DNA of 64,000 bases from an uncultured Ignavibacteriaceae bacterium (GTDB lineage Bacteria; Bacteroidota; Ignavibacteria; UBA10030). Made by a program: the position numbers and the translations under genes. The DNA is taken from assembly GCA_964534125.1 (NCBI GenBank), contig CAZHOJ010000002.1:68696-132695 (forward strand), read 5' to 3'. This document shows positions 3,365 through 55,351 of the stretch, piece by piece (within the stretch, counting starts at the first letter, position 1; the number at the start of each line of letters is the position of its first letter). The notes under the pieces are model-generated. The model was not told where the DNA came from. It did not search any database and saw nothing but the letters and a program-made list of their open reading frames with translations.

Positions 3365-5125
3365 ATGGAAATTCTTGATTGGAGCATTGTCCTCGTCTAC
3401 TTCGCGCTGAGTGTGGCCATTGGACTCTATTACGCCAAAAGGGCGGGGAAGGACATCGGAGAGTTCTTCCTCTCCGGTCGGAATCTCCCCTGGTGGCTTG
3501 CCGGCACATCGATGGTCGCCACGACATTCGCCGCTGATACGCCGTTGGCTGTCACAGAGCTCGTGGCAAAGAACGGGATCGCAGGCAATTGGCTGTGGTG
3601 GAACTTTCTGTTCGGGTCGATACTGACGGTGTTCTTCTTCTCGCGGCTCTGGAGGCGTGCCGGCATTCTCACGGATGTCGAGTTCGTGGAATTGCGCTAT
3701 GCAGGGAAGCCTGCGGCCTTCCTCCGCGGGTTCAGGGCCCTCTACCTTGGGCTCTTTATTAACTGTGTGATCATGGCGTGGGTGAACGTGGCCATGGCCG
3801 CCATCCTCGAGGGGATGTTCGGCGTCCCTGCGGGGCAGGTCATGATCTATATTATCATAGCCATGATCATCACCGCCATCTATTCGGCCACATCCGGCAT
3901 GTGGGGTGTCGCCGTGACCGACGCATTCCAGTTCGTCCTGGCGATGGGGGGAACGATAGCGCTGGCCATTGTCGTCCTCGACCTTCCCCAGGTGGGGGGC
4001 GTTGCAGGCCTGCGCGCGCAGTTGCCCGAGTGGGCGCTGCTGTTCACCCCGAAGATCGGCGATATTTCTGTATCAGATGGGGCGGGCGGTGTTCTCGCCC
4101 TTTCTGCGGGCGCGTTCATGGCGTTCATCGGGGTCCAATGGTGGGCATCATGGTATCCCGGGGCCGAACCCGGCGGCGGTGGCTACGTCGCCCAACGGAT
4201 GATGTCTGCGAAGGACGAGCGACATTCATTGTTCGCGACGCTCTGGTTCACGATTGCACACTACTGTTTGCGCCCGTGGCCATGGATCCTCGTGGGGCTG
4301 GCGACGCTCATTCTCTATCCGGACCTTTCAGAAGCAGATAAGAAGCTCGGATATGTCTACGCCATGCGGGACTTCCTTCCGAGCGGTCTGAAGGGTGTTC
4401 TCGTCGCCTCGTTCTTCGCCGCATATATGTCGACGATCGCAACGCAGCTCAATTGGGGCACATCATATGTCGTGAACGATTTCTATAAACGGTTCGTCGC
4501 ATCGGATGCCCCTCAAAAGCGTCTCGTGCTCGTCTCGCGTATCACGACGATCGTGGTCATGGTGACATCGCTCTTCGTGACGCAGATCATCGACACTATC
4601 TCGGGCGCATGGACATTCATCATCGAGGCGGGGGCGGGGCTGGGGCTCGTCCTCATTCTTCGCTGGTTCTGGTGGAGGATCAATGCGTGGTCTGAGATCA
4701 CGGCCATGCTGGTCCCTCTGGCAACCTATGCTGTCATCGTCACATTCACTGACCTTGTCTTCCCTACCTCCTTGTTCATCATCGTAGGGATCACCACTGT
4801 CTCGTGGTTGACAGTGACGATGCTCACCACGCCGGTCCCGGAAGAAAAATTGCTGTCGTTCTATCGCAGAGTCCATCCCGGTGGGCTCGGCTGGAAGAAT
4901 ATCGCCGCAAAGGCGCCTGATGTGCGGGGCGACGCCGATTTTGGGGCATTAGCCATCAGTTGGGTGATCGGTGTCGTGATGGTCTATTCAGCCCTTTTTG
5001 GGATTGGATATGTCATTTTTGGGGATACCATCCAGGGTTCGGTCTTCCTTGGGCTCGCAGTATTGTGCGCATATGCCATGAATCGAACGATGAAGCGCAT
5101 CGGATTCACGGCTCTCGTCAAGTAA
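3365..5125 (+). CDS. Sodium:solute symporter family (SSF) transporter
   Basis: Thirteen or more hydrophobic segments; N-terminal SSF motif GR(N)LPWWLAGTSMVAT.FAADT; divergently transcribed from the GH38 gene. Confidence 0.85.
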   Translation: MEILDWSIVLVYFALSVAIGLYYAKRAGKDIGEFFLSGRNLPWWLAGTSMVATTFAADTPLAVTELVAKNGIAGNWLWWNFLFGSILTVFFFSRLWRRAGILTDVEFVELRYAGKPAAFLRGFRALYLGLFINCVIMAWVNVAMAAILEGMFGVPAGQVMIYIIIAMIITAIYSATSGMWGVAVTDAFQFVLAMGGTIALAIVVLDLPQVGGVAGLRAQLPEWALLFTPKIGDISVSDGAGGVLALSAGAFMAFIGVQWWASWYPGAEPGGGGYVAQRMMSAKDERHSLFATLWFTIAHYCLRPWPWILVGLATLILYPDLSEADKKLGYVYAMRDFLPSGLKGVLVASFFAAYMSTIATQLNWGTSYVVNDFYKRFVASDAPQKRLVLVSRITTIVVMVTSLFVTQIIDTISGAWTFIIEAGAGLGLVLILRWFWWRINAWSEITAMLVPLATYAVIVTFTDLVFPTSLFIIVGITTVSWLTVTMLTTPVPEEKLLSFYRRVHPGGLGWKNIAAKAPDVRGDADFGALAISWVIGVVMVYSALFGIGYVIFGDTIQGSVFLGLAVLCAYAMNRTMKRIGFTALVK

Positions 5126-7269: not shown

Positions 7270-7737
7270 ATGAAAGCAGTTCTCCAGCGGGTCTCCTCAG
7301 CGAGCGTTCAGGTCGACGGCAACATCGTCGGAAGCATCTCTGCCGGCCTGCTGGTGCTCCTGGGTATAAAGAAAGAGGATGCGGACACTGACGCGGAGTC
7401 GCTTGCCCAGCGGTGTTCCGTCCTCAGGGTCTTTGCGGACGATCAGGGGAAAATGAACCTCTCCGTCCGGGACATGGGAGGCCAGATTCTCGTCGTATCA
7501 CAGTTCACGCTGTATGGCGACACCAGGAAGGGGACCCGCCCCAGCTACTCCAATGCAGCGCCCCCTGATGAGGCAGAGCGCCTGTACGATCTGTTCGTGG
7601 CCCAGCTGAAGGACCTTCTCGGCGCCGAGAAGGTGAGAACAGGCGTATTCGGGGCCATGATGCAGGTAAGCCTCGTGAATGACGGTCCGGTCACTGTTAT
7701 GGTCGAGACCCCGCCGGGGGGAGCATCGCCGTCGTGA
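7270..7737 (+). CDS. dtd: D-aminoacyl-tRNA deacylase
   Basis: Classic Dtd sequence MKAVLQRV...SQFTLYGD...NDGPVT; about 150 aa. Confidence 0.9.
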   Translation: MKAVLQRVSSASVQVDGNIVGSISAGLLVLLGIKKEDADTDAESLAQRCSVLRVFADDQGKMNLSVRDMGGQILVVSQFTLYGDTRKGTRPSYSNAAPPDEAERLYDLFVAQLKDLLGAEKVRTGVFGAMMQVSLVNDGPVTVMVETPPGGASPS

Positions 7738-8660: not shown

Positions 8661-11035
8661 CAGCAAGGCCTGCCGTCCGTATCGCGGTCCTTCTTGCTGC
8701 CGGCATCTTCATCGCACAGGAAGCACAGCTCCCTGCGGCGATGTGGTACGCCGTCTTCCTCTGTAACGCCCTCCTTGCGTTCATCTTCTCATCATTCTGG
8801 CGCGCCCCGTCCGGCCAGACACGGCACCATGGTATGCTCCGGGACGGTTCGTACAATACCTCGATACTCTGTCTCGGTGCAACGCTCCTTGCCGTCACCG
8901 GGCAGAACGATGCCAGACATCGGCTTGACCCGCCCTATCCGGACTATCCTGTGCAGGCATGGGGTTGGGTCGCAACTCCCCTCAATCCCACCCGGACGGG
9001 CCACTCTTTTGTTCTGGCCACGGATTCTATCGTATCTCCCGGATGGATGGACAGGAGCGAGAGGGACGTGGTGGTCTACGTCGGTTCGCGCGTGGCCGGT
9101 CGACGGCCGCTTCCCGGTACGAGGATCGCTCTCGCCGGCACGCTTGAGCGGTTCCCCCGTGCCCGTAATCCCGGTGAGCACGACTATGGCGTCACGCTGG
9201 ATGTGCTGGGCATTTCCGGCGTCCTCAGGGGAACATCGTGGGTCATAGACACGACCGTATCGATCGGACCTCTGCAGAGCGTCGTTGGATCGATCCAGGA
9301 CAGATTATACCGCTGGATCGACGCGCTGCACCCGGGTGAACACGGATCGTTCGTCAAGGGCATTATTCTCGGGTACCGCGCTGATCTGCCGGAGGATCTT
9401 AAGGAGGCCTTCATGCTCACCGGTACGGTGCACATCCTTGCCGTATCCGGCTCGAACGTCGCCCTCATTGCCCTCATCGTCATGGTGTGTTCGGGATTCC
9501 TCCGGGTCGGACGCGTTATCAGGGTCGGGCTCACCATCGCAGGTATGCTCTTTTATATGATGGTCACGGGTGGTGGGCCGTCGATCACCCGGGCCACCAT
9601 CATGGGGATCACAGTCGTGCTCCTCACATTCCTGCCGCGTCGCGGAGATGTTATCCAATCACTGGGAGTCTCGGCAACCATCCTGCTCCTGCTCGATCCC
9701 CGGAACCTCTTCGACGCCGGATTCCTGCTTTCGTTCGCGTCTGTGATCTGGATCGTAACGGGCAACGATGCCCTCCAACGTTTCATCAGACGGATGCCGG
9801 AAGAGTTCAGGGAATCCCCCGGGGTCCGCTCAGCACTCCAGTTGTGCGGTGTCTCCCTCCTCGCTCAGCTCGGGACAATTCCCGTGTCGGCGTTGTTCTT
9901 CGGCCAGATATCCCTCATATCTGTCTTCGCCAATCTCCTTGTTGTTCCGCTGTCGGCGATCGTCTTGCTCCTTGGAGTGGCTGAGCTGTCGTTCTACGGG
10001 ATGCTGCCCGTGCTTGCCTCGCCATACGCAGCTGCGAATGGTCTGGTGATAGATGTTCTCTTGGGGTTCGTGCGCCTTGTCTCCCAGGTGTCATTCGCAT
10101 CTGTCGAGATCCATCTTGGTGGGCTCGCCGAAGCGGTCCTGCTCTACTGCGTCTTTGTCGCGGTGGTGTGGTGGTCTATCACACGTGTCCGGAACACCGC
10201 CATACTCGCCGGCGTTCTTTGCCTGAATCTGATGGTGTGGCCCGCAGCGCTCAGGCCGCCTGGCGGCAGCTTCGAATGGATCGCAGTCGATGTCGGTCAG
10301 GGGGATGCTCACATCGTCAGGACCCCCGAGGGCAGGACCATGCTCATCGATGCAGCTCCTCAGGAACGCACTGCCGAACGGACACTGCTTCCGGTTCTCG
10401 AACATCTGGGGGTCGATGAGATCGATCTCCTGGTCATTTCACACCCCCATTGGGATCATATCGCAGGACTCGGTGTGTTGCTCGACCATGTTCCCGTCCG
10501 TACATTGGTCCTCACAGACTCTGTCAGCCTTCGGGAAGACGTGCTGGAGAGCATCGACGCGAAAGGGATACTCGTTCTCCGGGCGCGGACTGGTGACGTC
10601 CTGCCGTTCGGCTCCGGGGTTCGATGCTACGTCCTTCACCCGGGTATCGTCCGTCCGTGGGAGGGGTGGAACAACAATTCGCTCGTCCTTTCGGTGCGTT
10701 ATGGCAGTACGGGCGTCCTGTTCACGGGAGATCTGGAGGAAGAGGGAGAAGAAGTTGTCGTTGCCAGATACGGTGATTTTCTGCGGAGCGACCTCTTGAA
10801 GGCCGGCCACCATGGCAGCAGCACATCCACGAGCCCCGTGCTGCTCGGGGCTGTTCAGCCGGCAGATGCGATCGTGTCGGTCGGTTGGAGGAATCGGTTC
10901 GGACATCCTTCTCCTGAGCGTGAAGCGCTCCTGCGGGACCGCGATGTCGGGATCCACAAAACGTCCGAGCAGGGTGCGCAATGGTGGCGAAGCGATGGGT
11001 ATGTGTGGGACCATGCATCCTGGACACTTCACTGA
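8624..11035 (+). CDS. comEC: DNA internalisation competence protein ComEC/Rec2 with C-terminal metallo-beta-lactamase domain
   Basis: Polytopic membrane core plus MBL motifs VDVGQGDA, HPHWDH, KAGHHGS; the start overlaps the upstream gene by about 37 nt, so the true start is uncertain. Confidence 0.85.
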   Translation: MPQRSNAIQRGVAARPAVRIAVLLAAGIFIAQEAQLPAAMWYAVFLCNALLAFIFSSFWRAPSGQTRHHGMLRDGSYNTSILCLGATLLAVTGQNDARHRLDPPYPDYPVQAWGWVATPLNPTRTGHSFVLATDSIVSPGWMDRSERDVVVYVGSRVAGRRPLPGTRIALAGTLERFPRARNPGEHDYGVTLDVLGISGVLRGTSWVIDTTVSIGPLQSVVGSIQDRLYRWIDALHPGEHGSFVKGIILGYRADLPEDLKEAFMLTGTVHILAVSGSNVALIALIVMVCSGFLRVGRVIRVGLTIAGMLFYMMVTGGGPSITRATIMGITVVLLTFLPRRGDVIQSLGVSATILLLLDPRNLFDAGFLLSFASVIWIVTGNDALQRFIRRMPEEFRESPGVRSALQLCGVSLLAQLGTIPVSALFFGQISLISVFANLLVVPLSAIVLLLGVAELSFYGMLPVLASPYAAANGLVIDVLLGFVRLVSQVSFASVEIHLGGLAEAVLLYCVFVAVVWWSITRVRNTAILAGVLCLNLMVWPAALRPPGGSFEWIAVDVGQGDAHIVRTPEGRTMLIDAAPQERTAERTLLPVLEHLGVDEIDLLVISHPHWDHIAGLGVLLDHVPVRTLVLTDSVSLREDVLESIDAKGILVLRARTGDVLPFGSGVRCYVLHPGIVRPWEGWNNNSLVLSVRYGSTGVLFTGDLEEEGEEVVVARYGDFLRSDLLKAGHHGSSTSTSPVLLGAVQPADAIVSVGWRNRFGHPSPEREALLRDRDVGIHKTSEQGAQWWRSDGYVWDHASWTLH

Positions 11036-11053: not shown

Positions 11054-12703
11054 ATGACTGAAGAAGAAATTCAGGCACGGCGTGAGCGATGGGAGAAAGA
11101 GACGCGGGATCCGTCACTTCGCGGCAAGTCGGTCGACCCTGAAGCCTTCAGGACTGATTCCGGCATACCGGTCGAGGAGGTCTACGCATTCTTTTCGGAC
11201 CCCGAACTTGCGCGAACAGGGTTCCCCGGTGAGTTCCCCTTCACGCGTGGCGTTCATCCCACGATGTATCGGGGGAGGCCGTGGACGATGCGGCAGTATG
11301 CGGGATTCGGGACCGCTGAGGAATCGAACAAACGGTACAGATACCTCATCGACCATGGTACAACAGGGTTGTCTGTTGCATTCGACCTCCCGACGCAGAT
11401 AGGGTATGATTCGGACCATGCCATGGCCGAAGGGGAGGTGGGGAAGGTCGGCGTTGCCATCGATTCCATCGACGACATGCGTCGCCTGTTCGACGGCATC
11501 GCTCTGGACAAGGTTTCCACTTCTATGACCATCAATGCGACTGCGCCCATCCTGCTCGCGCTCTATGTTGCACATGCGCAAGGACAGGGGATTGAACCGG
11601 GCGCCCTGTCCGGGACGGTACAGAACGATATTTTGAAGGAATACGCTGCCCGCGGCACCTACATATTCCCCCCGGCACCCTCCTTGCGGTTCGTCACGGA
11701 TGTCTTTGAATGGTGCAGCGGGCACATGCCACGATGGAACACCATATCGGTGAGCGGATACCACATCCGGGAAGCTGGTTCAACCGCGGTGCAGGAGCTT
11801 GCCTTCACGCTCGCAAATGCGATCGCCTATGTCCAGTCCGCAGTCGATCGCGGTCTTGATGCCGATGTGGTGGGGAAGCAGATCTCCTTCTTCTTCAATG
11901 CGCACAACACCTTCTTCGAGGAGGTCGCGAAGTTTCGTGCTGCACGCCGGTTGTGGGCGCACATCATGAAGGACCGTTTCGGCGCACAGCGGCCGGAGAG
12001 CATGAAGCTCCGGTTCCATGCGCAGACCGGCGGCTCGACCCTCACAGCACAGCAGATCGACACGAACGTCGTGCGTGTGACCATCCAGGCTCTTGCGGCC
12101 GTGCTCGGCGGATGCCAATCGCTGCATACGAACTCCCGCGATGAGGCTCTCGCCCTGCCGACGGAAGATTCCGCGCGTCTGGCGCTTCGCACCCAGCAGG
12201 TCATCGCGTATGAGACGGGAGTGACGCACACGGTCGATCCGCTCGGGGGTTCGTTCTTCGTTGAGTCCCTCACCGATGAGATGGAACGGCACGTCCTCGA
12301 ATACCTGGACAAGATCGACGGGATGGGGGGGGCGGTGCGGGCCATCGAGAAGTCCTTCATTCAGAGCGAGATCGCCGCAAGCTCATATGCGTACCAGAAG
12401 AGCATTGAACAGGGGAGCAAGACCATCGTCGGCGTCAATGCGTTCACGATGGAAGAGGACGTTCGGCCTGAGCTTCACACGATAGATCCGTCCCTCCAGA
12501 AGCGGCAGATCGAACGGGTACGTGCTCACAGGGAGCAACGTAATGCAAGGGCATGGGAAACGTCCATGAAGGAGGTCCGGGAATGTGCGGTTGAGGGGAG
12601 AAACCTCATGCCTGCCTTGATTCCAGCGGTGATCGCCGGGGCAACAGTCGGAGAGATATCCGGCGTGCTTCGGGAGGTCTGGGGCGAGTACGACGGGGGC
12701 TGA
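11054..12703 (+). CDS. Methylmalonyl-CoA mutase family, catalytic (large-subunit) domain only
   Basis: [30 protein letters not shown]...[11 protein letters not shown] signature of MCM/ICM catalytic TIM barrel; the 549 aa lack the C-terminal B12-binding domain. Confidence 0.9.
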
Positions 12704-46694: not shown

Positions 46695-47819
46695 ATGGCC
46701 TGGTCGGATGTCATAGGACAGGAGCGGGCGAAGGATATTCTCAGGCGCTCCATCGCGAACAAGCGTGTGGCGCATGCGTACCTGTTCCACGGGAGAGCGG
46801 GAGTGGGGAAGGACGCGCTCGCACTCGAGTTCGCTCGTACCCTCCAGTGCATGGCGGGCGGGGATGAAGCCTGCGGTGAGTGCAAGAGCTGCCGTCTCGC
46901 AGCGGAGCTCAAGCATCCGGACGTGCGCATCATCGTCCGGTTGCCCTCCGCACGGAATGAACAGGCCGGTGACGATCCCTTCGCCAACCTGGGGGACGAG
47001 GTGATAGCAGCATTCAAGGACGAGATGGCTGCGAAGGCACGCGATCCGTATTATCCCATCAGCCTGCCGAAGGCGCAGGTCATTCGCATCAACAGCATCC
47101 GCCACATCAGGCGGGAAGCCGCCAGGTCGCCTGTTGAGGGCCGGTACAAGATCTTTCTCATCCTCCAGGCTGAGGATATGAATCAGGAGTCCTCGAACGC
47201 GCTGCTCAAGACGCTCGAGGAGCCCCTCCCGAATGCGCTGCTGCTACTGACGAGCACGTACCCACAGCAACTCCTTCCAACGATCGTGTCGCGGTGCCAG
47301 CAGGTGGAGTGCTCGCGGCTCGGCGATGATGAGATCGCCCTCGCCCTTCAGAGGAGGGAGGGATGTTCAGAGGACGAGGCGGTGACAGCGGCCCGTGCGT
47401 CTGACGGGAGCTATGGGATCGCGCGGACACTGCTTCAGGGTGACGTGGAAGAGGAACGGGCAACCGCCGTGGAATTTCTCAGGTTCGCGGTGGGCCAATC
47501 GTTCGTGAAACTTTCGGAAGTGGTCGAGACCATCGTCCGTGAGAAGGACAGGCAAGGCATCGAAGCATGGCTGAAGCTCCTCCAGGCTTGGATACGGGAG
47601 ACCTATCTCGTTCAGCAGGGCTCTGTGCGTCAAGGCATCATCGAGGATGATGCGCGCACACGACTCCTCCAGCGATTTCCTCGCGCCGCACTCGACCTCT
47701 CCATCGACTGCGTTGAGCGTGCAATTGCCGATACCCGCAGAAATGTGTACCTTCCTGTCATCCTGAACTCTCTTGCGCACGAGCTCCGACAGCACATCGC
47801 ATCCCCCCGGCAGGCATGA
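46695..47819 (+). CDS. holB: DNA polymerase III delta-prime subunit
   Basis: AAA+ clamp-loader fold with degenerate Walker A (GRAGVGKDALA), zinc module C..C..C..C and SRC-like motif. Confidence 0.85.
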   Translation: MAWSDVIGQERAKDILRRSIANKRVAHAYLFHGRAGVGKDALALEFARTLQCMAGGDEACGECKSCRLAAELKHPDVRIIVRLPSARNEQAGDDPFANLGDEVIAAFKDEMAAKARDPYYPISLPKAQVIRINSIRHIRREAARSPVEGRYKIFLILQAEDMNQESSNALLKTLEEPLPNALLLLTSTYPQQLLPTIVSRCQQVECSRLGDDEIALALQRREGCSEDEAVTAARASDGSYGIARTLLQGDVEEERATAVEFLRFAVGQSFVKLSEVVETIVREKDRQGIEAWLKLLQAWIRETYLVQQGSVRQGIIEDDARTRLLQRFPRAALDLSIDCVERAIADTRRNVYLPVILNSLAHELRQHIASPRQA

Positions 47820-49873
47820 CCCGCACCGCTGATACCATACTCATCACGGCAGCATTGCCGTACGCCAACGGCTACATCCATTTGGGGCACCTGGCGGGTG
47901 CATACCTCCCTGCGGATATGTATGCGAGATACCAGCGGTCAGCCGGCAGGGCCGTTCTCTTCCTCTGCGGGTCGGATGAACACGGCGTGGCCATCACGGT
48001 CAGCGCCGAGCAGGAAAAGACCACTCCTCAAGCCATTATCGACCGCTATCATCCTGACAATCAGGCGTCCTTCAGCGCGTTCGGCATGAGCTTCGACCAC
48101 TATTCGAGGACCTCGATACCGCTGCATCATGAAACGGCCCGGGAATTCTTTGTGTCATTCCACCGGAACGGTACCCTGCGGGAACGGGAGGAACAGCAAC
48201 TGTTCTGCGCGACCGACAAGATGTTCCTGGCGGACAGATACGTGGAGGGCACCTGCCCCGTGTGCGGGCACGCTGAGGCGAGGGGCGATCAGTGCGAGCA
48301 ATGCGGCAGCTGGCTGAACCAGACGGAGCTGAAGGACCCCGTGTGCAGGTTATGCGGTTCAAAGCCGGTCATCCGAAGCACCACCCACTGGTATTTTCCC
48401 CTGAACGCTTTCCAGCAGCGACTCGAAGCCTACATCGCGGAACGTGATGCGCGCGATGGCTGGAGGGAGACGGTCAAGCGGTATTGCCAGAGCTGGTTCA
48501 CCGGCGGACTGCAGGAGAGAGCGGTGACGAGGGACCTGTCGTGGGGCGTACGTGTGCCGGTCAAAGGCTACGAGAACAAGGTCATCTATGTCTGGTTCGA
48601 TGCTGTCCTGGGATACATCACAGCCGGGAAGGAATGGGCGGCAGCTGCGGGAGATCCTGATGCATGGAAATCCTATTGGCAGAACGAGGATACAAAGTAT
48701 GTGGCATTCATCGGGAAGGACAATGTCGTCTTCCACTGTATCGTCTTTCCGGCGATGCTGATGGCCTGGAATGACCATGAAAAAGAACGCTACGTCCTGC
48801 CGGAAAATGTCCCCGCGAACGAGTTCCTGAATCTCGAAGGCGAGAAGTTCTCAAAGAGCAGGGGGTGGGGGATCGACCTGCGGGATTTCCTTCGTTTCTT
48901 CCCCGCCGATTATCTGCGCTACGCGCTCGCTGTGAATCTCCCGGAGACCAAGGATTCGGATTTTTCCCTCGCCGACTTCATGGCACGTATCAACAATGAA
49001 CTGGCGGACAGTGTGGGCAACTTCGTCAACAGGACGACCACGTTCGTGCAGCGGAACTTTGAAGGGCGGGTGCCGGAGGCGGGGGATGGCGACGACCGGG
49101 ACAAGGTCTTTGTACGTCTGCTGGAGGATGCACCTGGTCGCATCGGTTCGCTGTATGAATCGTACAGGTTCCGGGATGCTGTGAACGAAACGATAGCGGT
49201 AGCACGTGCGGCGAACAAGTATTTCAACGATGGCGCGCCATGGAAACGTATCGCGTCAGATCGGCCGGCTGCTGCGACCACACTGCGAAACTGCCTGCGG
49301 GCAGTCCATACGCTTTCGGTCCTGCTGCATCCGGTAGTGCCGGGTATCGCCGGCAGGATGAGGATGGGACTCGGTTTCCCTGCCACGGAGAAGCCTGCGC
49401 CCTGGAGCGGTGGGGGAGACGATCCGTTCGGAACGGACCATCGCATCGGTACGCCGGAGGTCCTGGTACCAAAGATCGAACAGAAGGATATAGACGCTAT
49501 GACTGACGCACGTGCGGGAACGGACGGCACACAGACATCCATGGAAAACGTCATCACCATCGATGACGTGACGAAGGTCGACCTCCGCGTGGCGACAGTA
49601 CTTGAGGCTGAAGCAGTGCCGAAATCGAAGAAGCTCATTCGTCTCTCGATCGACCTCGGAACGGACAAAAGGCAGATCGTCGCCGGGATCGCACAGCATT
49701 ATGCTCCGGAGTCCCTGCCCGGAAAACGTATCATCGTTGTCGCCAACCTCAAACCGGCAAAGCTGATGGGGTACGAGTCCCAGGGGATGTTGCTCGCCGC
49801 CCACGGGGAGGACGGTACCTTGACGCTCGTCACAACGGAGGGCGTCGTCCCGGCGGGATCGAAGATCAGGTGA
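47816..49873 (+). CDS. metG: Methionine--tRNA ligase with C-terminal EMAP/tRNA-binding domain
   Basis: HIGH-type motif (YIHLGHLAG), zinc knuckle C..C...C..C, KFSKS and C-terminal OB domain. Confidence 0.95.
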   Translation: MTRTADTILITAALPYANGYIHLGHLAGAYLPADMYARYQRSAGRAVLFLCGSDEHGVAITVSAEQEKTTPQAIIDRYHPDNQASFSAFGMSFDHYSRTSIPLHHETAREFFVSFHRNGTLREREEQQLFCATDKMFLADRYVEGTCPVCGHAEARGDQCEQCGSWLNQTELKDPVCRLCGSKPVIRSTTHWYFPLNAFQQRLEAYIAERDARDGWRETVKRYCQSWFTGGLQERAVTRDLSWGVRVPVKGYENKVIYVWFDAVLGYITAGKEWAAAAGDPDAWKSYWQNEDTKYVAFIGKDNVVFHCIVFPAMLMAWNDHEKERYVLPENVPANEFLNLEGEKFSKSRGWGIDLRDFLRFFPADYLRYALAVNLPETKDSDFSLADFMARINNELADSVGNFVNRTTTFVQRNFEGRVPEAGDGDDRDKVFVRLLEDAPGRIGSLYESYRFRDAVNETIAVARAANKYFNDGAPWKRIASDRPAAATTLRNCLRAVHTLSVLLHPVVPGIAGRMRMGLGFPATEKPAPWSGGGDDPFGTDHRIGTPEVLVPKIEQKDIDAMTDARAGTDGTQTSMENVITIDDVTKVDLRVATVLEAEAVPKSKKLIRLSIDLGTDKRQIVAGIAQHYAPESLPGKRIIVVANLKPAKLMGYESQGMLLAAHGEDGTLTLVTTEGVVPAGSKIR

Positions 49874-49881
49874 TGCCAGTC

Positions 49882-49915
49882 TTTGCATAGCAGTCCGGGA
49901 GTATGTATATTTTTG
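49882..49915 (+). promoter_or_regulatory. FCB-type promoter (-33 TTTG at 49882-49885; -7 TATTTTTG at 49908-49915) dedicated to the TIR-like gene
   Basis: Motifs seen directly, 22 nt apart, about 70 nt upstream of the ATG at 49988. Confidence 0.45.
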
Positions 49916-49987
49916 AAGCCGCTTCCTCCCTGCCCGCTCGATGCCGCATCACCGGCACGCGACCAGGATGACAGTGTAACATACCAG

Positions 49988-50857
49988 ATGTCAGAATCGA
50001 TCATACGGCAACTTGAAGATCTCGTCACGCGCGGGGCAGACCTCGTGCCTCTCGGGGGCTTCGATTTCTCGGGGTACAACGCCCGGTTGCAGGAGAAATA
50101 TGCCGAGTGGCGGAAATCCTGCCTCGAAGCTCTCGAAGCTGCGGGTCCGATAGCCTTCCCGTATAAAACAAAGATCCTCGGCGACCAGAATGGCGGGTAT
50201 TTCTACCAGTCCTCTGCACAGCTCATCCATAATTGTACGCGGGAACTGTATGAGAAGCTCAAGAGCTCGCCCGACCTCGCGTCGGCGCCTGCACAGGCAG
50301 ACCAGGACCAGGTCGCTGCACCATCCGGTGCTCCCGCCACGGCGACGAGAGTCGTCGGTGCGCGTGTCCTGAAACCGCCTCCGAAAAGGTCCGCTCCTGA
50401 CGCAGCACCCGCTCCATCACCCTCGCAGCAGCCGGCAGCTTCCACCCCCGCGACAGGCTCATCGGCTGTCGGCAACAAAGTGTACGTCATTGCGGAGGAG
50501 AACGATCCGCTCAGGGCTCAGTTGAGCACGTTCCTCGCCGAGATTGGCCTCGAGGAGATCGATGTAAGCCGGACGCATGGCCAGATGCTCGATCTCGATG
50601 CCTTCCAGCTCCAGAATGATGTCGGCTATGCATTCTTCATCTTCAACAGCGAGGACCTGTCCTACGCTATGTTCGAGCTTGGACATTTCGTGGGGAAGTT
50701 GGGAAAGGGGAAGGTGTCGGTGCTTCACATGAGCGACGTCAATTTCCCGAAGAACGTTCCGGGTGTTCTTGCGAAACCCATTGTCGTCAAGCTTGAGGAA
50801 TCGAGCCTCGCGATCATGAAGGAGCTCAAAGCGGCGGGGTACAAGATCAGCTTCTGA
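49988..50857 (+). CDS. Protein with novel N-terminal domain, Pro/Ala/Ser-rich linker and C-terminal TIR-like (CAP12/PycTIR-type, COG4271-like) nucleotide-binding domain
   Basis: C-terminal about 125 aa follow the COG4271 pattern KV(F/Y)(I/V)....(E/D)...........L......DFAIFV.T.DD.....NV.FELG.F.G.LG...V..L (here KVYVIAEEND...DVGYAFFIFNSEDL...NAMFELGHFVGKLGKGKVSVL); start chosen at MSESII because of the promoter position. Confidence 0.6.
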   Translation: MSESIIRQLEDLVTRGADLVPLGGFDFSGYNARLQEKYAEWRKSCLEALEAAGPIAFPYKTKILGDQNGGYFYQSSAQLIHNCTRELYEKLKSSPDLASAPAQADQDQVAAPSGAPATATRVVGARVLKPPPKRSAPDAAPAPSPSQQPAASTPATGSSAVGNKVYVIAEENDPLRAQLSTFLAEIGLEEIDVSRTHGQMLDLDAFQLQNDVGYAFFIFNSEDLSYAMFELGHFVGKLGKGKVSVLHMSDVNFPKNVPGVLAKPIVVKLEESSLAIMKELKAAGYKISF

Positions 50858-50886
50858 AAGGCCGCAGGACGGTTCGTTCGTCGAAG

Positions 50887-50928
50887 AAACACAAAGGGCG
50901 CCCGAGAACGGAGCGCCCTTTGTGTTTT
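50887..50928. terminator. Bidirectional rho-independent terminator between convergent genes
   Basis: Perfect 15-bp stem AAACACAAAGGGCGC / GCGCCCTTTGTGTTT with 11-nt loop, flanked by an A-run and a T-run. Confidence 0.8.
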
Positions 50929-50943
50929 CAACCTGGCCGGCCG

Positions 50944-51873
50944 TCAGGGATTGGCGTTGTCCACCAGAGCGGCCATGTTCTCGTAGAAGATCTTTTTGAT
51001 GCTCGGGATGGGCATACGCATTTCCTGGACAAGTTTCAGTTGATTATCCACGATATCGTATCTGTATCCGCGAGGGAGCATACCGCTGTCGGAGCCAAAG
51101 AGGATGCGGTCCGGCGTGAAGACCTCAACGGCCCTCTGGAAGACCCGGCGCAGGTCAGGTTTCGAAGGATGCTCGTTGATCCAGCTGTTCGACCCGGCGG
51201 TATCGACATGGACGTTCTTGCAGGCCGCCCCTACCTCCAGCAGTTCCTCCCACCGACCGGCGCCGAAGTTCGGAACGATGAACTGGATACCCGAGAATTT
51301 CTTTGCGACCGGTATAAGGTCCTTTGGATTCCCGAACGCGTCATTCGTGACCGTCGGTACACCCGCGAAATCTCGGGAACGCATGATGAGCTTTCCGAAG
51401 TGCACAAAAACAAGGCCCTTCACTTCCTGTACCAGATTATACAGTGGGTACAACCATTCGTCGTTGACCGGTATCTGGTAGAAACTGGGATAGAGGAGGA
51501 TCCCCTTCAGTTTGTCCTGCCTCAGTCTCTTCTCTGCGTTCTCCATCAGGAGGTTCGAGTTCGGATCGACGAGGAACATCCCAGAGAACCTTGTCGGATG
51601 CGCCTGGACCGCCTTGACGACGGAGTCCTCATCGCCGGGCATGCTTGCGAACAGCATGAGCCGCTCGAGCTTCCATTTGTCGATGATATCGATCCAACGC
51701 TTCGCCAGCTGAACAGGATCGTCCCCGGGGATCTCTATGTGTCCCTTGGCGGCGATATTGCGCAGTTCGGTATTGATGTCCGCTCTGTTCGGCTTCTGCT
51801 TGACCAGGTACTTGAAGTACGTGTTCGAATAGAAGTGAACATGTGCATCGAATATCTTGAAGAGGCCAATCAT
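50944..51873 (-). CDS. Amidohydrolase-2-family TIM-barrel metal-dependent hydrolase
   Basis: N-terminal FDAHVHFY metal ligands and the amidohydrolase_2-like pattern across about 300 aa. Confidence 0.7.
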   Translation of the reverse strand: MIGLFKIFDAHVHFYSNTYFKYLVKQKPNRADINTELRNIAAKGHIEIPGDDPVQLAKRWIDIIDKWKLERLMLFASMPGDEDSVVKAVQAHPTRFSGMFLVDPNSNLLMENAEKRLRQDKLKGILLYPSFYQIPVNDEWLYPLYNLVQEVKGLVFVHFGKLIMRSRDFAGVPTVTNDAFGNPKDLIPVAKKFSGIQFIVPNFGAGRWEELLEVGAACKNVHVDTAGSNSWINEHPSKPDLRRVFQRAVEVFTPDRILFGSDSGMLPRGYRYDIVDNQLKLVQEMRMPIPSIKKIFYENMAALVDNANP

Positions 51874-52574
51874 CAGTTCTCAGGTGTATCGGGTGGTACG
51901 CTTGCCTCGTGCAGTGTCACGATGCCTGCGGTGAGATGTGTCCATCGTATGTTCGTGAATCCTGCTCCGGTCAGTTCAGCACAGAAGGCTTCTGCTCCGG
52001 GGAACTCCATCACTGTGCCCGGTAGATATGCATAGGCATCTTTGTGTCCCGAAACCAGACCTCCCACGCGGGGGAGCAGCCGCTGGAAGTACGGCATGTA
52101 AACGCGCCGGAACATGCCTTCCGGCCTGGAGAAGTCGAGTATGCGCACACCTCCGCCGGGACGCAACACCCTGCGGATCTCACTGAGCCCTCTTGCGCGG
52201 TCGGAAAAATTCCGAACGCCGAAAGCTACGAGCACGAGGTCGAACGATCCGTCCCTGAAGGGGAGTGCTTCTGCAGCCCCTTCGATCAGCGCATACGGAT
52301 ATCCGCCGAGCTTTCCACGGACCCGGGTAAGCATCGCGCGGGAGAGGTCCACTCCAACTAGCCGCTCCGGAGTGAGGTCCATCGCCGCACGCATGACATC
52401 GCCGGTTCCGGTGGCGACATCCAGGATGCGCGCACGCGTGAACTGGCGGCACGAAGATATGATCCTGGATCTCCAGCGTTGGTCGATTCCCAGGCTCAGG
52501 ACCCGGTTCAGCAGGTCATACCTGTGAGCTATCCTCTCGAACAGATTTCGGACTTCTCCGTGCGAATAGCCCAT
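51873..52574 (-). CDS. ubiE: Class I SAM-dependent methyltransferase, UbiE/MenG (demethylmenaquinone/ubiquinone) family
   Basis: RYDLLNRVLSLG...WR, VLDVATGTGD, RPGG...ILDFS motifs; start taken at MGYSHGE. Confidence 0.8.
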   Translation of the reverse strand: MGYSHGEVRNLFERIAHRYDLLNRVLSLGIDQRWRSRIISSCRQFTRARILDVATGTGDVMRAAMDLTPERLVGVDLSRAMLTRVRGKLGGYPYALIEGAAEALPFRDGSFDLVLVAFGVRNFSDRARGLSEIRRVLRPGGGVRILDFSRPEGMFRRVYMPYFQRLLPRVGGLVSGHKDAYAYLPGTVMEFPGAEAFCAELTGAGFTNIRWTHLTAGIVTLHEASVPPDTPEN

Positions 52575-52673
52575 TGTGTGCAAAAAAAGAAAGGAAAATA
52601 TACACATCAGGAAGAGGAATTCCAATCAGCCCCGGATTGATTCTCCTCAGGGGGTATCGTAGATTCGTGACGT

Positions 52674-53171
52674 ATGCGCCCAGTCCTCGCCTGTTTCGTC
52701 GTCCTTCTTTCCCATGGTTGCGATTCTGGACTTGAACCCCCGCCCCCGGAGCCGGGAATCGGTGGAGAGATCCAGTTCGTGTCATCATCGTGGCCACCGG
52801 CGGATAGCCTGGCCGGTCTCTGGCTGTTCGCCTCGCGTGAATACCCGCTGGACTCTGCCCGGGTCGTTGCGGGTGTTCTCGTCGAACCCCGTTTCATCTA
52901 CCTGTATCCGTCGATCTCTGAGTCGCTTCCGCTCTATGTGGACCGTGTAGAGTTCGAATTCCCGCTTGAGCCGGGAACGTACAAATATGTAGGGGTCATT
53001 CAACAGCTTCGTCCTCAGCTTCTTGTCTCGAACTTCAGGGTCGTCTCGATGCTGAGCGTCCCTGGTGTCGATAGTCTGCCGCGCTCCGTGGTCATCGGTC
53101 CTGAGACCTTCATCGGTGGATTCCGTTTGACCGTGGATTTCATGAATCCGCCTGCACAGCCCTTCCTATGA
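52674..53171 (+). CDS. Hypothetical lipoprotein
   Basis: Lipobox LSHGC; ATGA-overlapped with the downstream TonB-dependent receptor. Confidence 0.5.
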   Translation: MRPVLACFVVLLSHGCDSGLEPPPPEPGIGGEIQFVSSSWPPADSLAGLWLFASREYPLDSARVVAGVLVEPRFIYLYPSISESLPLYVDRVEFEFPLEPGTYKYVGVIQQLRPQLLVSNFRVVSMLSVPGVDSLPRSVVIGPETFIGGFRLTVDFMNPPAQPFL

Positions 53172-55351
53172 AGAGAATCGCGATCCTGACCGCTCTGATG
53201 CACGTCGTTCTCCTCTGTGGTTGGGGCCAGGAGACGTTGCGGGGGAAGGTCCTCGACGCACGGACAGGAGAGCCGCTTGCCGGCATCACGGTGTGGCTTC
53301 CGGATGAACAACGGGGAACGACGACCTCCGCTGACGGAACATTTATACTCCCGGGGACTCAAGCGGTGGACCCTCGTCTCCGGATCCAGGCGCTTGGATT
53401 CAGGACGAAGGATGCCAGGCTCTCCGACCTGGACCGGGAGGACGGTATGGTCATCGTGCGCCTCTCTGAATCTCCCATTCTGCTCAATGAGACCGTCATC
53501 ACAGCAGGACGGAGAGAACAATCCCTTCTGTCCGTGCCTGTCTCGGTATCTACGATCAGGGCGGATGAGCTCACGGACCGTATCGGGGTCACGCTGGACG
53601 AACCGCTTCGGTATGTCAGCGGTGTCCATGTGATGGATGACCAGATCAACATCAGGGGGTCGAGCGGATACAGCCGCGGCGTCGGTAGCAGAGTGTTGTT
53701 GCTGTTCGACGGAATCCCCCTTCTCACAGGTGACACCGGAGAGATTATCTGGGAGATGATCCCCGTTGACCAGGTTGACAGGGTGGAGGTCGTCAAGGGA
53801 GCGGGATCCGCATTGTACGGGTCCGCAGCGCTGGGGGGCGTCATCAATATCATCCCGATGAGGATCCCGGATGGTATCCGCGTCGGAGCACGGATCAGCG
53901 GTGCCATGTACAGCCAACCGGTGTATGACGAATGGAGATGGTCGGACCGTGCAAGGTCGTTCACGCAGGTGTCGCTGCTCTCTTCGTACAGCGGAGCATC
54001 GTGGGGGACACTCTTCTCGTTCGCGGGATGGATGGATGAGAGCCATCGCAAGAACGATGCGATGCACAGGTATGCATTCTATAACAGGACTCGCGTGGCC
54101 CTCAGCGATGTCTGGTCTGCCGGCATCACGGGACACTACGTCCGTCGGAGGGGAGGGAACTTCTTCTGGTGGAAGAGCCTGCGTTCTCCGCTGGTCCCGC
54201 CCGACGACTATGCGTCCAGGCAGGTCTTGTCGGACAGGGGATTCGTATCTGTGACAGCCCGGGGGGTGCATAGTGACAAGGCGGTCTCGTTCGTGCGGCT
54301 GCAATACTTTGCGAACGCTTGGTCTGACGAGGATGTGGGGATCGTTACGACCGAAGCACGCTCAGGCCGCCTGCTGTCCGAGGCCCAGCTGACGCTTGAG
54401 GTGGCTGACAGGCACCATCTCATCGTCGGTGCCACCGGGTATCTTGACAGGGTCTGGTCGAATATTTTCGGGACGCATCCCGGAGTCGGGGCCGCAGGAT
54501 TTCTTCAGGGTGAGGTGGCCATGACACGTTCGCTCGACATCTCGGTCGGTGTGAGGCTCGATTGGCAACAGGTCTCCGGCCTGGCCTCCGGATCGCAGGT
54601 CGACCCGAGGGTCGGCGCAGTGTACCGGATATCTGACGACCTTTCGCTTCGTGGATCGGTTGGGACCGGATTCCGGTATCCGTCCATCGGCGAACTGTAT
54701 ACTTCCATCTCGACAGGTTTCGGAGGCGTGAATGTTGTTCCCAATCCGCATCTCAAGCCGGAGACGAGCATCTCGGTCGAGGGCGGTGTGCGTTATCAGT
54801 TCTCTCCCGGCGGATCCTTTGATGTGGCAGTGTTCCAATCGACATATGAGGGGCTCATCGAGGCTGCCGTCGATGCGCAGCAGCTCGTCATCAGGTTCGA
54901 CAATGTTGAGCGTGCCCGCGTCCGTGGCGTCGAGATGCTGGCCGAGCATTCGCTCTTTGACGGGCTCCTGTCGTTCCGGGCCGGTTATACATACATCGAT
55001 CCCCGTGACCTGGAAACGAAGACGGTGCTGCGCTTCCGGCCGCAGCATGTCGGGATCTTCGGGGCATTCGCTCATCTGGAGGACCTTGAGCTGTCGGCTG
55101 ACTATCGGTATGTGAGCAGGATCGAGACGATAGATGCGAACCTTGTCACCGTCGCGGATATCAGGGACGGCGATGCCCGGACGGATATCCATACCGTGAA
55201 CCTGCGCGCATCCGTCACGATCGGTGCATTCGGTGTCCCCCTCCGGGCCGCGGCCGAGGTCCGGAATCTGACGAACCATCAATACGTGGAGCTCCTGGCG
55301 AACCTGGCGCCTCCGCGGACATATCTGCTGATGCTGGAGGTGCTGCTGTGA
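53168..55351 (+). CDS. TonB-dependent outer-membrane receptor with N-terminal CarboxypepD_reg-like domain
   Basis: Signal peptide, G.V.D..TGEPLAG.TV.....GT.T..DG.F domain, plug, barrel ending in an aromatic residue. Confidence 0.85.
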   Translation: MKRIAILTALMHVVLLCGWGQETLRGKVLDARTGEPLAGITVWLPDEQRGTTTSADGTFILPGTQAVDPRLRIQALGFRTKDARLSDLDREDGMVIVRLSESPILLNETVITAGRREQSLLSVPVSVSTIRADELTDRIGVTLDEPLRYVSGVHVMDDQINIRGSSGYSRGVGSRVLLLFDGIPLLTGDTGEIIWEMIPVDQVDRVEVVKGAGSALYGSAALGGVINIIPMRIPDGIRVGARISGAMYSQPVYDEWRWSDRARSFTQVSLLSSYSGASWGTLFSFAGWMDESHRKNDAMHRYAFYNRTRVALSDVWSAGITGHYVRRRGGNFFWWKSLRSPLVPPDDYASRQVLSDRGFVSVTARGVHSDKAVSFVRLQYFANAWSDEDVGIVTTEARSGRLLSEAQLTLEVADRHHLIVGATGYLDRVWSNIFGTHPGVGAAGFLQGEVAMTRSLDISVGVRLDWQQVSGLASGSQVDPRVGAVYRISDDLSLRGSVGTGFRYPSIGELYTSISTGFGGVNVVPNPHLKPETSISVEGGVRYQFSPGGSFDVAVFQSTYEGLIEAAVDAQQLVIRFDNVERARVRGVEMLAEHSLFDGLLSFRAGYTYIDPRDLETKTVLRFRPQHVGIFGAFAHLEDLELSADYRYVSRIETIDANLVTVADIRDGDARTDIHTVNLRASVTIGAFGVPLRAAAEVRNLTNHQYVELLANLAPPRTYLLMLEVLL

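What the first reader, a model, noticed from the sequence alone, without database searches (positions are those of the whole stretch)
49874..50928. Autonomous TIR-like (CAP12/PycTIR-type) domain gene with an uncharacterised N-terminal domain, inserted between metG and a convergent amidohydrolase
The ORF at 49988-50857 has three parts: an about 95-aa N-terminal domain I cannot assign (MSESIIRQLEDL...ELYEKLKSS), an about 80-aa Pro/Ala/Ser/Gln-rich linker, and a C-terminal about 125-aa segment. The C-terminal segment follows the COG4271 'nucleotide-binding protein containing TIR-like domain' pattern, including the conserved FELG glutamate that is catalytic in TIR NADases. It is a self-contained unit with its own Bacteroidetes-type promoter (TTTG ... 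TATTTTTG), an about 70-nt leader and a perfect 15-bp bidirectional terminator. It sits in an otherwise housekeeping, tightly packed operon landscape. In known CBASS/Pycsar/Thoeris systems this TIR-like fold is an effector or signal generator paired with a cyclase or sensor; here no partner gene is present. That suggests either a single-protein defence/abortive-infection module whose sensor is the novel N-terminal domain, or a housekeeping nucleotide-signalling role not yet described.
Basis: partly seen in the sequence, partly recalled or inferred. Interest (0 to 1): 0.75.

Follow-up and report, generated by a model that had tools for sequence, protein, structure and literature searches.

The report
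Immune-type TIR-like protein fixed in menaquinone locus
The gene is real and its C-terminal half does resemble bacterial immune TIR enzymes, but it is not an inserted defence gene: it is an old, vertically inherited resident of the menaquinone (futalosine) gene cluster of an Ignavibacteria lineage, has lost most NAD-binding residues, and stays behind even when the neighbouring pathway genes decay.

Summary
The ORF at 49988-50857 (289 aa) and its three-part layout are confirmed. The N-terminal four-helix bundle and the C-terminal TIR-like domain are both modelled with high confidence, and the linker is disordered. The C-domain passes Pfam PF10137 (CAP12/PycTIR), and its closest solved structure is Cap12. 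E230 aligns with Cap12's catalytic E84.

The "inserted defence gene" reading fails. In about 100 related loci the gene always occupies the same slot, usually between an MqnE-fusion gene and MqnC in a futalosine menaquinone operon. The window shows a derived state: the mqn genes were deleted from this position, which happened at least five times independently, always sparing this gene. Both folded domains are under strong purifying selection (dN/dS about 0.08-0.09).

The rare N-domain (39 cluster representatives in 1.84 billion) is shared with PADLOC's untested PDC-S35 candidates. Elsewhere it is fused to other TIR or nuclease domains, which points to an immune-type ancestry. The Cap12 NAD-contact residues are replaced, and one sub-clade lacks the glutamate.

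Best reading: a domesticated PDC-S35-type protein with an unknown housekeeping role, possibly linked to menaquinone synthesis.

The parts
49988..50857 (+). CDS of the 289-aa two-domain protein, stop codon included
   Evidence: ORF and sequence. Start confirmed by alignment of 36 homologues. 509 homologues, the top 120 all full-length at 57-79% identity.
49988..50284 (+). N-terminal four-helix-bundle domain (residues 1-99), with conserved loops P21-x-G23-G24...G29-Y30-N31...Q35..Y38..W41-R42 and D66-x-N68...F72-x-Q74-x-S76
50285..50467 (+). Disordered Pro/Ala/Ser/Gln-rich linker (residues about 100-160)
   Evidence: pLDDT below 50. Variable sequence and length. dN/dS 0.28. Canonical PDC-S35 relatives have only about 15-25 residues here.
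50363..50386 (+). Conserved linker motif R126-V-L-K-P130-P131-P132-K133
   Evidence: R126, P130 and P131 in 88 of 88 main-clade sequences, P132 in 74 of 88, K133 in 82 of 88. Function unknown.
50468..50854 (+). C-terminal TIR-like (PF10137-type, flavodoxin-like) domain, residues 161-289. E230 is at nt 50675-50677.
49882..49915 (+). Bacteroidetes-type promoter-like motif TTTG-N21-TATTTTTG in the 114-nt metG-to-gene spacer
   Evidence: Unique match in the window, 0.09 expected. The sigma-70-style scan also flags 49882-49911. Not conserved in other class B loci, so it is plausible but unproven.
50887..50927 (.). Perfect 15-bp inverted repeat with an 11-nt loop between the convergent gene ends; likely a bidirectional terminator
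   Evidence: The downstream 90 nt fold at -47.8 kcal/mol. The simple terminator scan missed it because its loop limit is 8 nt.
47816..49873 (+). metG (methionyl-tRNA synthetase), upstream neighbour; conserved anchor of the locus
   Evidence: tblastn synteny. Pfam tRNA-synt_1g and related families on orthologues.
50944..51873 (-). Convergent Amidohydro_2 gene whose start overlaps the ubiE stop; conserved partner of the locus
   Evidence: PF04909 79 bits, no NCBIfam model. 72-84% identical across loci. Its tree agrees with the tree of the TIR-like gene.
51873..52625 (-). ubiE/menG demethylmenaquinone methyltransferase; the one recognised menaquinone-biosynthesis gene remaining at this locus in the window
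   Evidence: PF01209 179.5 bits; TIGR01934 218 bits against cut-off 158.

Best explanation
What it is (shown). The gene encodes a lineage-fixed, vertically inherited relative of the PDC-S35 type of single-protein TIR-like immune candidates. It has a rare four-helix N-domain, a disordered spacer and a PF10137 TIR-like domain. Its ancestral position is inside the futalosine (mqn) menaquinone operon, between the MqnE-VitK2_biosynth fusion gene and MqnC. The window shows a derived state in which the mqn genes were deleted from the locus. That left metG, this gene, and the convergent Amidohydro_2 and ubiE genes.

How it most likely works (inferred). It no longer acts as a Cap12-style NAD+-depleting suicide effector. 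The residues that hold the NAD+ diphosphate and ribose in Cap12, and the aspartate supplied in trans, are replaced, and the loop that carries two of them is deleted. I propose that the conserved pole of the N-domain bundle binds a conserved cellular ligand or partner. I further propose that the TIR-like domain works as a dimerising or binding module, tethered by the flexible spacer. Residual glycosidase chemistry through the invariant E230 is possible. The role would be housekeeping, accessory or regulatory: it arose in association with MqnE and MqnC but is not strictly dependent on them.
For: Position. In 92 loci fetched by similarity the gene is always in the same slot. The upstream neighbour is the MqnE fusion in roughly 60 loci and metG in about 22. 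Neighbour identities were confirmed with NCBIfam equivalogs (MqnE 473.6 > 434.55; MqnC 467.5 > 428.1; MqnM 511 > 495.9). Distant relatives (N-domain 40-45% identical) lie in different outer contexts but still between the MqnE fusion and MqnC, with spacers of 5-30 nt upstream of the gene and up to 76 nt downstream.

mqn decay around an intact gene. MqnC is frameshifted in L002, L014, L049 and L086. There are 62-aa MqnC remnants in L059 and L060, MqnE-fusion remnants in L002 and L014, and a VitK2_b remnant in L069.

Independent losses. Monophyly of the mqn-free class has 0% bootstrap support. Each mqn-free lineage groups with mqn-bearing relatives at 87-100%. The gene tree agrees with the Amidohydro_2 tree.

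Selection. dN/dS is 0.089 for the N-domain, 0.078 for the C-domain and 0.28 for the linker, and 0.07-0.11 between mqn-free genomes. Neighbouring enzymes give 0.05-0.10. GC3 is 0.68, within the neighbours' range.

Immune-type ancestry. The N-domain is shared with PDC-S35 members (P0152 225 bits; P0162 238 bits; P0147 covers profile positions 1-260). It is also fused to TIR_2-type, TIR-TM-type and DpnII/MboI REase domains.

Degenerate pocket. R78 becomes L224, N80 becomes Y226 (87 of 88), S10 becomes E170 (84 of 88), and the D110 position is variable. The HG motif and the roughly 20-residue RARQN loop are lost. The sub-clade P0134/P0135/P0139 has Ala in place of the glutamate, yet P0134 (L097), the one member whose context I looked up, sits in an intact operon.

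No viral homologue. The single IMG/VR hit is a chimeric contig end.
Against: E230, F229, G232 and H233 are invariant in 88 of 88 main-clade sequences. That is what one expects if the glutamate is still catalytic. The N-domain's association with alternative effector domains is typical of active immune proteins, so an immune function cannot be excluded. Nothing measured here shows what the protein binds or does; the mechanism is inference from conservation patterns. I could not read whole genomes. It is therefore unknown whether mqn-free loci reflect loss of the pathway or relocation of its genes. It is also unknown whether some relatives lack the gene altogether. The unbiased sample is only three loci, all with MqnE fusions at least 75% identical to the query. 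The pocket mapping rests on an HMM alignment to one solved homologue at about 16% identity.
Confidence: 0.5

Rival explanations
1. It is still an active single-protein abortive-infection module of the PDC-S35 type. The N-domain senses an infection cue. The protein then oligomerises and the TIR-like domain destroys NAD+ or another nucleotide through E230. It simply happens to be fixed in this lineage.
For: Both domains are homologous to PDC-S35 candidates, and the N-domain is swapped among TIR and nuclease effector domains. PF10137 is above its cut-off and Cap12 is the closest structure. E230 is invariant in the main clade. No partner gene is needed for a single-gene system.
Against: The gene has uniform, vertically inherited synteny inside a biosynthetic operon, with upstream spacers of 5-30 nt. 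dN/dS is housekeeping-like, and the supposed sensor is the most conserved part. The NAD-contact residues and the trans-acting Asp of Cap12 are replaced and a loop is deleted. One operon-embedded sub-clade lacks the glutamate. There are no defence genes nearby and no true viral homologues. PDC-S35 itself is one of 145 untested candidates.
Confidence: 0.2
2. It is the missing N-glycosidase of this futalosine pathway. It would be a non-orthologous replacement of MqnB or MTAN that cleaves adenine or hypoxanthine from aminofutalosine or futalosine, using the glutamate of a TIR/nucleoside-deoxyribosyltransferase-like fold.
For: The gene order MqnE(-VitK2 fusion), this gene, MqnC mirrors the pathway order MqnE, nucleosidase, MqnC. 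The triad survives rearrangements of the outer flanks. MqnB is defined as a PNP_UDP_1 protein (PMC3914697). From general knowledge, this fold superfamily includes N-glycosidases.
Against: The gene is kept intact, under purifying selection, in at least five lineages where the adjacent mqn genes are frameshifted, fragmentary or gone. A sub-clade within an intact operon has Ala instead of the glutamate. A helical domain plus a 60-250-residue disordered spacer is odd for a pathway enzyme. The housekeeping MTAN could lie elsewhere in these genomes; this was not testable. The family's nearest relatives are immune-type proteins.
Confidence: 0.1
3. It is a neutral or selfish passenger: an inactivated defence-gene relic that persists only through its position in an essential operon.
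For: The NADase pocket is degenerate. The gene sits in the middle of an operon, where deletion could be polar.
Against: dN/dS of 0.08-0.09 on both folded domains, with synonymous sites saturated. The gene is full-length in nearly all of about 100 loci, while flanking mqn genes decay around it. It is retained as a stand-alone gene after the operon is gone, as in the window.
Confidence: 0.03

Closest known systems
PADLOC PDC-S35 (untested single-gene phage defence candidate, predicted by guilt-by-embedding; bioRxiv 10.1101/2024.01.29.577857)
   Same: The two-domain architecture is the same: this rare four-helix N-domain followed by a PF10137 TIR-like domain. The C-domain matches the PDC-S35 HMMs at E 2.6e-16. 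The N-domain matches PDC-S35 members by phmmer at E 1e-8 to 1e-3.
   Different: The linker is 60-80 residues (up to about 250 in relatives) instead of about 15-25. The HG motif and the RARQN loop are lost. PSD-x-x-G becomes PKN-x-P-G. The window protein aligns to the PDC-S35 profiles only over the C-terminal half. The genomic setting is a conserved menaquinone operon, not a defence system.
Cap12 (TIR-STING, CBASS NADase effector; PDB 7un8, 9lmq) and PycTIR (Pfam PF10137)
   Different: There is no STING or cyclic-nucleotide-binding domain, and no CD-NTase or cyclase among the neighbours examined. The NCBIfam Cap12 equivalogs score 12-15 bits against a cut-off of 450. The NAD+-contact residues S10, R78, N80 and D110 are not conserved.
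MqnB futalosine hydrolase / MTAN (PNP_UDP_1, PF01048)
   Same: In relatives the gene occupies the operon position that corresponds to the nucleosidase step between MqnE and MqnC.
   Different: The fold and family are unrelated. The gene persists where the mqn genes have decayed, and one sub-clade lacks the candidate catalytic residue.
Thoeris ThsB / TIR_2-type bacterial TIR proteins
   Same: A related TIR superfold. The same N-domain is fused to such TIRs in P0148 and P0155.
   Different: The window protein has no hit to PF08937 or PF13676. No ThsA-like partner was seen among the neighbours.

Membership tests
Pfam PF10137 CAP12/PycTIR TIR domain | HMM score above the curated gathering threshold | tested here: met
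   26.4 bits for the whole protein and 29.9 bits for the C-domain, against a cut-off of 24.7. The margin is small.
Pfam PF10137 CAP12/PycTIR TIR domain | Flavodoxin-like TIR fold | tested here: met
Pfam PF10137 CAP12/PycTIR TIR domain | Conserved catalytic glutamate on helix alpha-C | tested here: met
   E230 aligns with SfSTING E84 and is invariant in 88 of 88 main-clade sequences. It is Ala in the related sub-clade P0134/P0135/P0139.
Active Cap12-type NADase | NAD+-pocket residues (SfSTING S10, R78, N80; D110 supplied in trans) | tested here: not met
   The equivalents are E170, L224, Y226 and a variable position (N, G, S or T). The loop that carries R and N is deleted.
CBASS Cap12 / Pycsar PycTIR systems | Cyclic-nucleotide sensor domain on the protein, and an adjacent CD-NTase or pyrimidine cyclase gene | tested here: not met
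   The N-domain is a four-helix bundle with no STING or cNMP-binding match. NCBIfam Cap12 equivalogs score 12-15 bits against 450. The neighbours are metG, Amidohydro_2 and ubiE.
PADLOC PDC-S35 | Match to the PDC-S35 HMMs over the full length (N-domain plus TIR-like domain) | tested here: inconclusive
   The C-terminal half matches at E 2.6e-16 (profile positions 109-258 of 264). The N-domain is not aligned by hmmscan, but it is homologous to the N-domains of true members by phmmer.
PADLOC PDC-S35 | Embedded in or next to known defence systems; variable genomic presence | tested here: not met
   The position is fixed in a menaquinone/metG locus in about 100 loci. By contrast the true member P0152 lies next to a putative N6 methyltransferase and near a transposase.
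PADLOC PDC-S35 | Anti-phage activity | not testable with these tools
   The PDC systems themselves are described as 145 untested candidates.
MqnB / MTAN futalosine-pathway nucleosidase | PNP_UDP_1 (PF01048) fold | tested here: not met
   There is no PF01048 hit; the fold is TIR-like. MqnB is defined as a PNP_UDP_1 protein in PMC3914697.
MqnB / MTAN futalosine-pathway nucleosidase | Hydrolysis of futalosine or aminofutalosine to dehypoxanthinyl futalosine | not testable with these tools
   Only positional evidence is available: the gene lies between MqnE and MqnC in relatives.

The most novel reading that the evidence does not exclude
An immune-type TIR module (PDC-S35 lineage) was exapted long ago into core metabolism as a previously unrecognised component of the futalosine menaquinone pathway of Ignavibacteria. 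It could carry out or gate the aminofutalosine-to-dehypoxanthinyl-futalosine step. It could couple the two radical-SAM enzymes MqnE and MqnC. Or it could sense a nucleoside or SAM-related metabolite through the conserved N-domain. Its persistence after local mqn loss would then reflect relocation of the pathway genes, or a second role.
Probability: 0.2. Interest if true: 0.85.

Novelty: new variant of a known kind. Interest (0 to 1): 0.6.

Why it matters
Bacterial TIR-like proteins of the CAP12/PycTIR type are known as NAD+-destroying immune effectors on mobile, patchily distributed loci. This one has behaved for a long evolutionary time like a core gene. It sits inside a vitamin-K2 (menaquinone) biosynthesis operon, is inherited vertically, is under strong purifying selection, and has a remodelled active site.

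If the domestication reading holds, it is a clean bacterial example of an immune module recruited to a housekeeping role. That parallels what is discussed for eukaryotic TIR domains. It would also give a handle on the function of a rare, unstudied four-helix 'sensor' domain shared with predicted defence proteins.

If the pathway reading holds instead, it would add a new protein to the futalosine pathway, which is of interest as an antibacterial target.

There is also a practical caution. Defence-finder tools that score PF10137 or PDC-S35 hits would mislabel this conserved gene as an immune system in these genomes.

Tried and rejected
(1) MqnB-replacement idea. I raised it from the gene order and then demoted it. 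The gene outlives decaying mqn neighbours in at least five lineages, and a sub-clade in an intact operon lacks the glutamate.

(2) MTAN probe. 

(3) Viral link. The only IMG/VR hit (L093) matches just the last 130 nt of an AT-rich contig, and the upstream frame is full of stops. I judged it an assembly chimera.

(6) Promoter conservation. The Bacteroidetes-type motif is unique in the window but absent from the other class B loci. It cannot be called a conserved regulatory feature.

(7) Literature. Searches for PDC-S35, for futalosine with TIR domain, and for futalosine with Ignavibacteria found no prior description.

(8) A first attempt at a bootstrapped tree timed out and was redone with a faster implementation.

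Full report
**1. Observation**

The ORF is real. An open frame ends at 50857, and the ATG at 49988 gives a 289-aa protein beginning MSESIIRQLEDL. Thirty-six homologues all start at the equivalent residue. The mechanical TTG start at 49883 and the 314-aa database gene call (P0001) are therefore over-extensions.

AlphaFold2 with the family alignment confirms the three-part layout:
- A helical N-domain, residues 2-93, pLDDT about 90.
- A disordered stretch, about residues 100-160, pLDDT below 50.
- A beta/alpha C-domain, residues 164-282, pLDDT about 90.

The 15-nt perfect inverted repeat at 50887-50901 / 50913-50927 is confirmed. The Bacteroidetes-type motif TTTG-N21-TATTTTTG at 49882-49915 is the only match in the 64-kb window (0.09 expected). 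It is not shared by related loci with the same gene order.

**2. The C-terminal domain**

Pfam PF10137 (CAP12/PycTIR TIR domain) is hit just above its cut-off: 26.4 bits for the whole protein and 29.9 for the domain, against 24.7. PADLOC's PDC-S35 models match better (E 2.6e-16), but only over the C-terminal half of the profile. The NCBIfam Cap12 equivalogs are far below threshold (12-15 bits against 450).

A profile of the family matches SfSTING at E 6e-9 and aligns the FELG glutamate (E230) with the VVFEFG glutamate. That residue is the catalytic E84 (PMC9402430).

**3. The active site is degenerate**

The SfSTING paper lists the NAD+ pocket:
- F6, W33, F37 and L47 stack the nicotinamide.
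- S10, R78 and N80 hold the phosphodiester and ribose.
- E84 is catalytic.
- D110 is supplied in trans.

In 88 main-clade sequences, E230 (E84) and Y166 (F6) are invariant. R78 is replaced by Leu, Met or Ile. N80 is replaced by Tyr in 87 of 88. S10 is replaced by Glu in 84 of 88. The D110 position varies among N, G, S and T.

Canonical PDC-S35 proteins carry VFVIHGR, a loop TPDD...PRARQN, VIFELGYF and PSDYSG. Compared with them, this clade has lost the HG motif and the whole loop of about 20 residues. A related sub-clade (P0134, P0135, P0139) has LMALGY, with no glutamate at all.

**4. The N-terminal domain**

It is rare. phmmer against 1.84 billion cluster representatives finds 39 proteins, and the domain is always N-terminal. 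The distant carriers are informative:
- P0147, P0152, P0156, P0158 and P0162 have the N-domain, a short linker and a canonical PF10137 domain. They are PDC-S35 members: P0152 scores 225 bits, P0162 scores 238 bits, and P0147 covers profile positions 1-260 of 264.
- P0148 and P0155 carry TIR_2, ThsB or TIR-TM-type TIR domains.
- P0150 carries a DpnII/MboI restriction-endonuclease domain (194 bits).

One N-terminal module on alternative effector domains is the usual signature of conflict systems. PDC-S35 itself is one of 145 untested candidates found by 'guilt-by-embedding'. The one true member whose context I read (P0152) sits next to a putative N6 methyltransferase, with a transposase nearby.

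**5. Genomic context: not an insertion**

I examined 5 GTDB loci, 80 JGI metagenome loci and several exact-protein look-ups. In all of them the gene occupies the same slot.

The majority arrangement is: metG, MqnP (UbiA), UbiX, MqnM (UbiD), MqnE fused to a VitK2_biosynth domain, this gene, MqnC; then on the opposite strand Amidohydro_2, a VitK2_biosynth gene and UbiE. NCBIfam equivalog models confirm the identities: MqnE 473.6 > 434.55, MqnC 467.5 > 428.1, MqnM 511 > 495.9. Intergenic spacers around the gene are a few to about 50 nt.

More distant relatives (P0131, P0134, P0136) lie in quite different outer contexts, with Iso_dh/Dus/LysE or Fer4-CCG/T9SS-tail genes. They are still exactly between the MqnE fusion and MqnC.

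All of that sampling was conditional on the gene being present. As a control I took three MqnE-fusion proteins chosen only for long contigs. All three are followed by a 259-280-aa PF10137 gene and then MqnC, and two of them again have different outer flanks.

**6. The window shows a derived, mqn-depleted state**

In the window and about 20 other loci, metG is followed directly by the gene (class B), or by a MenA-like UbiA prenyltransferase and then the gene. None of the mqn genes is present anywhere in the 64-kb window.

Intermediate stages of decay exist:
- MqnC carries real +1 or +2 insertions in L002, L014 and L086, and is frameshifted in L049.
- Only a 62-aa MqnC remnant survives in L059 and L060.
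- Remnants covering 13% of the MqnE fusion survive in L002 and L014.
- A VitK2_b remnant survives in L069.

The TIR-like gene is full-length in essentially every locus; only L005 shows a frame break.

I built trees of the gene, of Amidohydro_2 and of both concatenated. They agree with one another and reject a single origin of the mqn-free state. Class B monophyly has 0% bootstrap support, while each mqn-free lineage groups with mqn-bearing relatives at 87-100%. The mqn genes therefore left this locus at least five times, and the gene was spared each time.

*Ignavibacterium album* uses the classical men pathway (PMC3362086), so switching of the quinone pathway within the class is plausible. I could not read whole genomes, so I cannot say whether the mqn genes were lost or moved elsewhere.

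**7. Selection**

Nei-Gojobori dN/dS over 73 pairs (80-97% identical) is 0.089 for the N-domain, 0.078 for the C-domain and 0.28 for the linker. Pairs of mqn-free genomes give 0.07-0.11, with synonymous sites otherwise saturated. Over the same genome pairs the neighbours give 0.054-0.097.

GC3 of the gene (0.68) lies within the range of its neighbours. No viral homologue exists; the single IMG/VR hit is a chimeric contig end. This is the behaviour of a native, constrained gene.

**8. Interpretation**

Shown:
- The gene is a vertically inherited, strongly constrained relative of PDC-S35-type TIR-like proteins.
- It is anciently embedded between MqnE and MqnC.
- It persists when those genes go.
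- It lacks most Cap12 NAD-contact residues.

Inferred: it has been domesticated to a housekeeping, accessory or regulatory role. The conserved pole of the N-domain bundle (P-x-GG...GYN...Q..Y..WR and D-x-NG-x-YFYQ-x-S) would bind a conserved ligand or partner. The TIR-like domain would act as a dimerising or binding module, possibly with residual E230-dependent chemistry.

I rate this at about 0.5. An active abortive-infection protein fixed in the lineage remains possible at about 0.2; the invariant E230 and the effector-swapping N-domain speak for it. A futalosine-pathway nucleosidase replacing MqnB or MTAN is attractive from the gene order. It is weakened by the gene's survival after mqn decay and by the glutamate-less sub-clade in an intact operon; I rate it about 0.1.

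**9. Novelty**

I found no paper that links TIR-like proteins to the futalosine pathway or that describes PDC-S35 function. The protein is best filed as a new variant of a known kind: a long-linker, pocket-degenerate, operon-fixed branch of the PDC-S35/PF10137 family. Defence-annotation pipelines would probably mislabel it.

Noticed in passing
window 50944-51873 (-): A conserved Amidohydro_2 (PF04909) enzyme with no NCBIfam model. Its start codon overlaps the ubiE stop at 51873. It is 72-84% identical across loci, more conserved than metG, and in relatives it lies between MqnC and a VitK2_biosynth gene. This is a second unassigned, tightly conserved gene of the menaquinone cluster and could be a missing pathway step.
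   Followed up: partly
In every locus inspected where the fusion is intact, the TIR-like gene follows it.
   Followed up: partly
L086 about 11762-11767; L002 about 7647-7650; L014 about 10792-10800: Three loci carry insertions (+1, +2, +1 nt) at the same short T-run in MqnC, around codons 266-268. Each breaks the frame, while both halves stay about 80% identical to intact MqnC. This could be recurrent pseudogenisation at a hotspot or something programmed; it is unresolved.
   Followed up: partly
L054 1325-2215; also L002, L014, L031, L049, L052, L086 (upstream of the gene) and L035 (downstream): A 297-aa UbiA-family prenyltransferase sits next to the TIR-like gene exactly in the loci where the mqn genes are decaying or gone. 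It is closest to MenA models but below their cut-offs (111 bits against 277). This suggests a switch of quinone pathway.
   Followed up: partly
window 50363-50386: An invariant R-x-x-x-P-P-(P)-K motif (RVLKPPPK) lies in the middle of an otherwise variable, disordered linker. It could be a short linear binding motif or an EF-P-dependent polyproline pause. It is absent from the more distant operon-embedded relatives.
   Followed up: partly
L043 11961-12554 (also L006, L017, L049, L086): A conserved 197-aa hypothetical protein with a hydrophobic N-terminus and no Pfam or NCBIfam hit directly follows MqnC in several loci.
   Followed up: no
L093 (IMG/VR UViG_3300025318_000307) 4358-4492: The last ~130 nt of an AT-rich 'viral' contig encode 45 residues of the Ignavibacteria gene at about 73-82% identity. 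The upstream frame is full of stops. This is probably an assembly chimera in the viral collection.
   Followed up: yes
L005 6291-6411 (MAG RIFCSPLOWO2_12_FULL_56_21): This is the only locus where the TIR-like gene shows a frame change, in the linker. The public annotation calls just a 90-aa fragment (P0121, OGU72745.1). It could be a sequencing error or a real disruption.
   Followed up: no
window 52674-55351 (+): A 165-aa hypothetical protein with no Pfam hit is followed by a TonB-dependent receptor and then tatD. This forms a conserved block downstream of ubiE in most related loci.
   Followed up: no
window 1-64000: The window is densely packed, almost every gene is on the + strand, GC is 58.8%, and there are no tRNA genes. 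The TIR-like gene shows no compositional anomaly (GC3 0.68 against 0.60-0.79 for most neighbours).
   Followed up: partly
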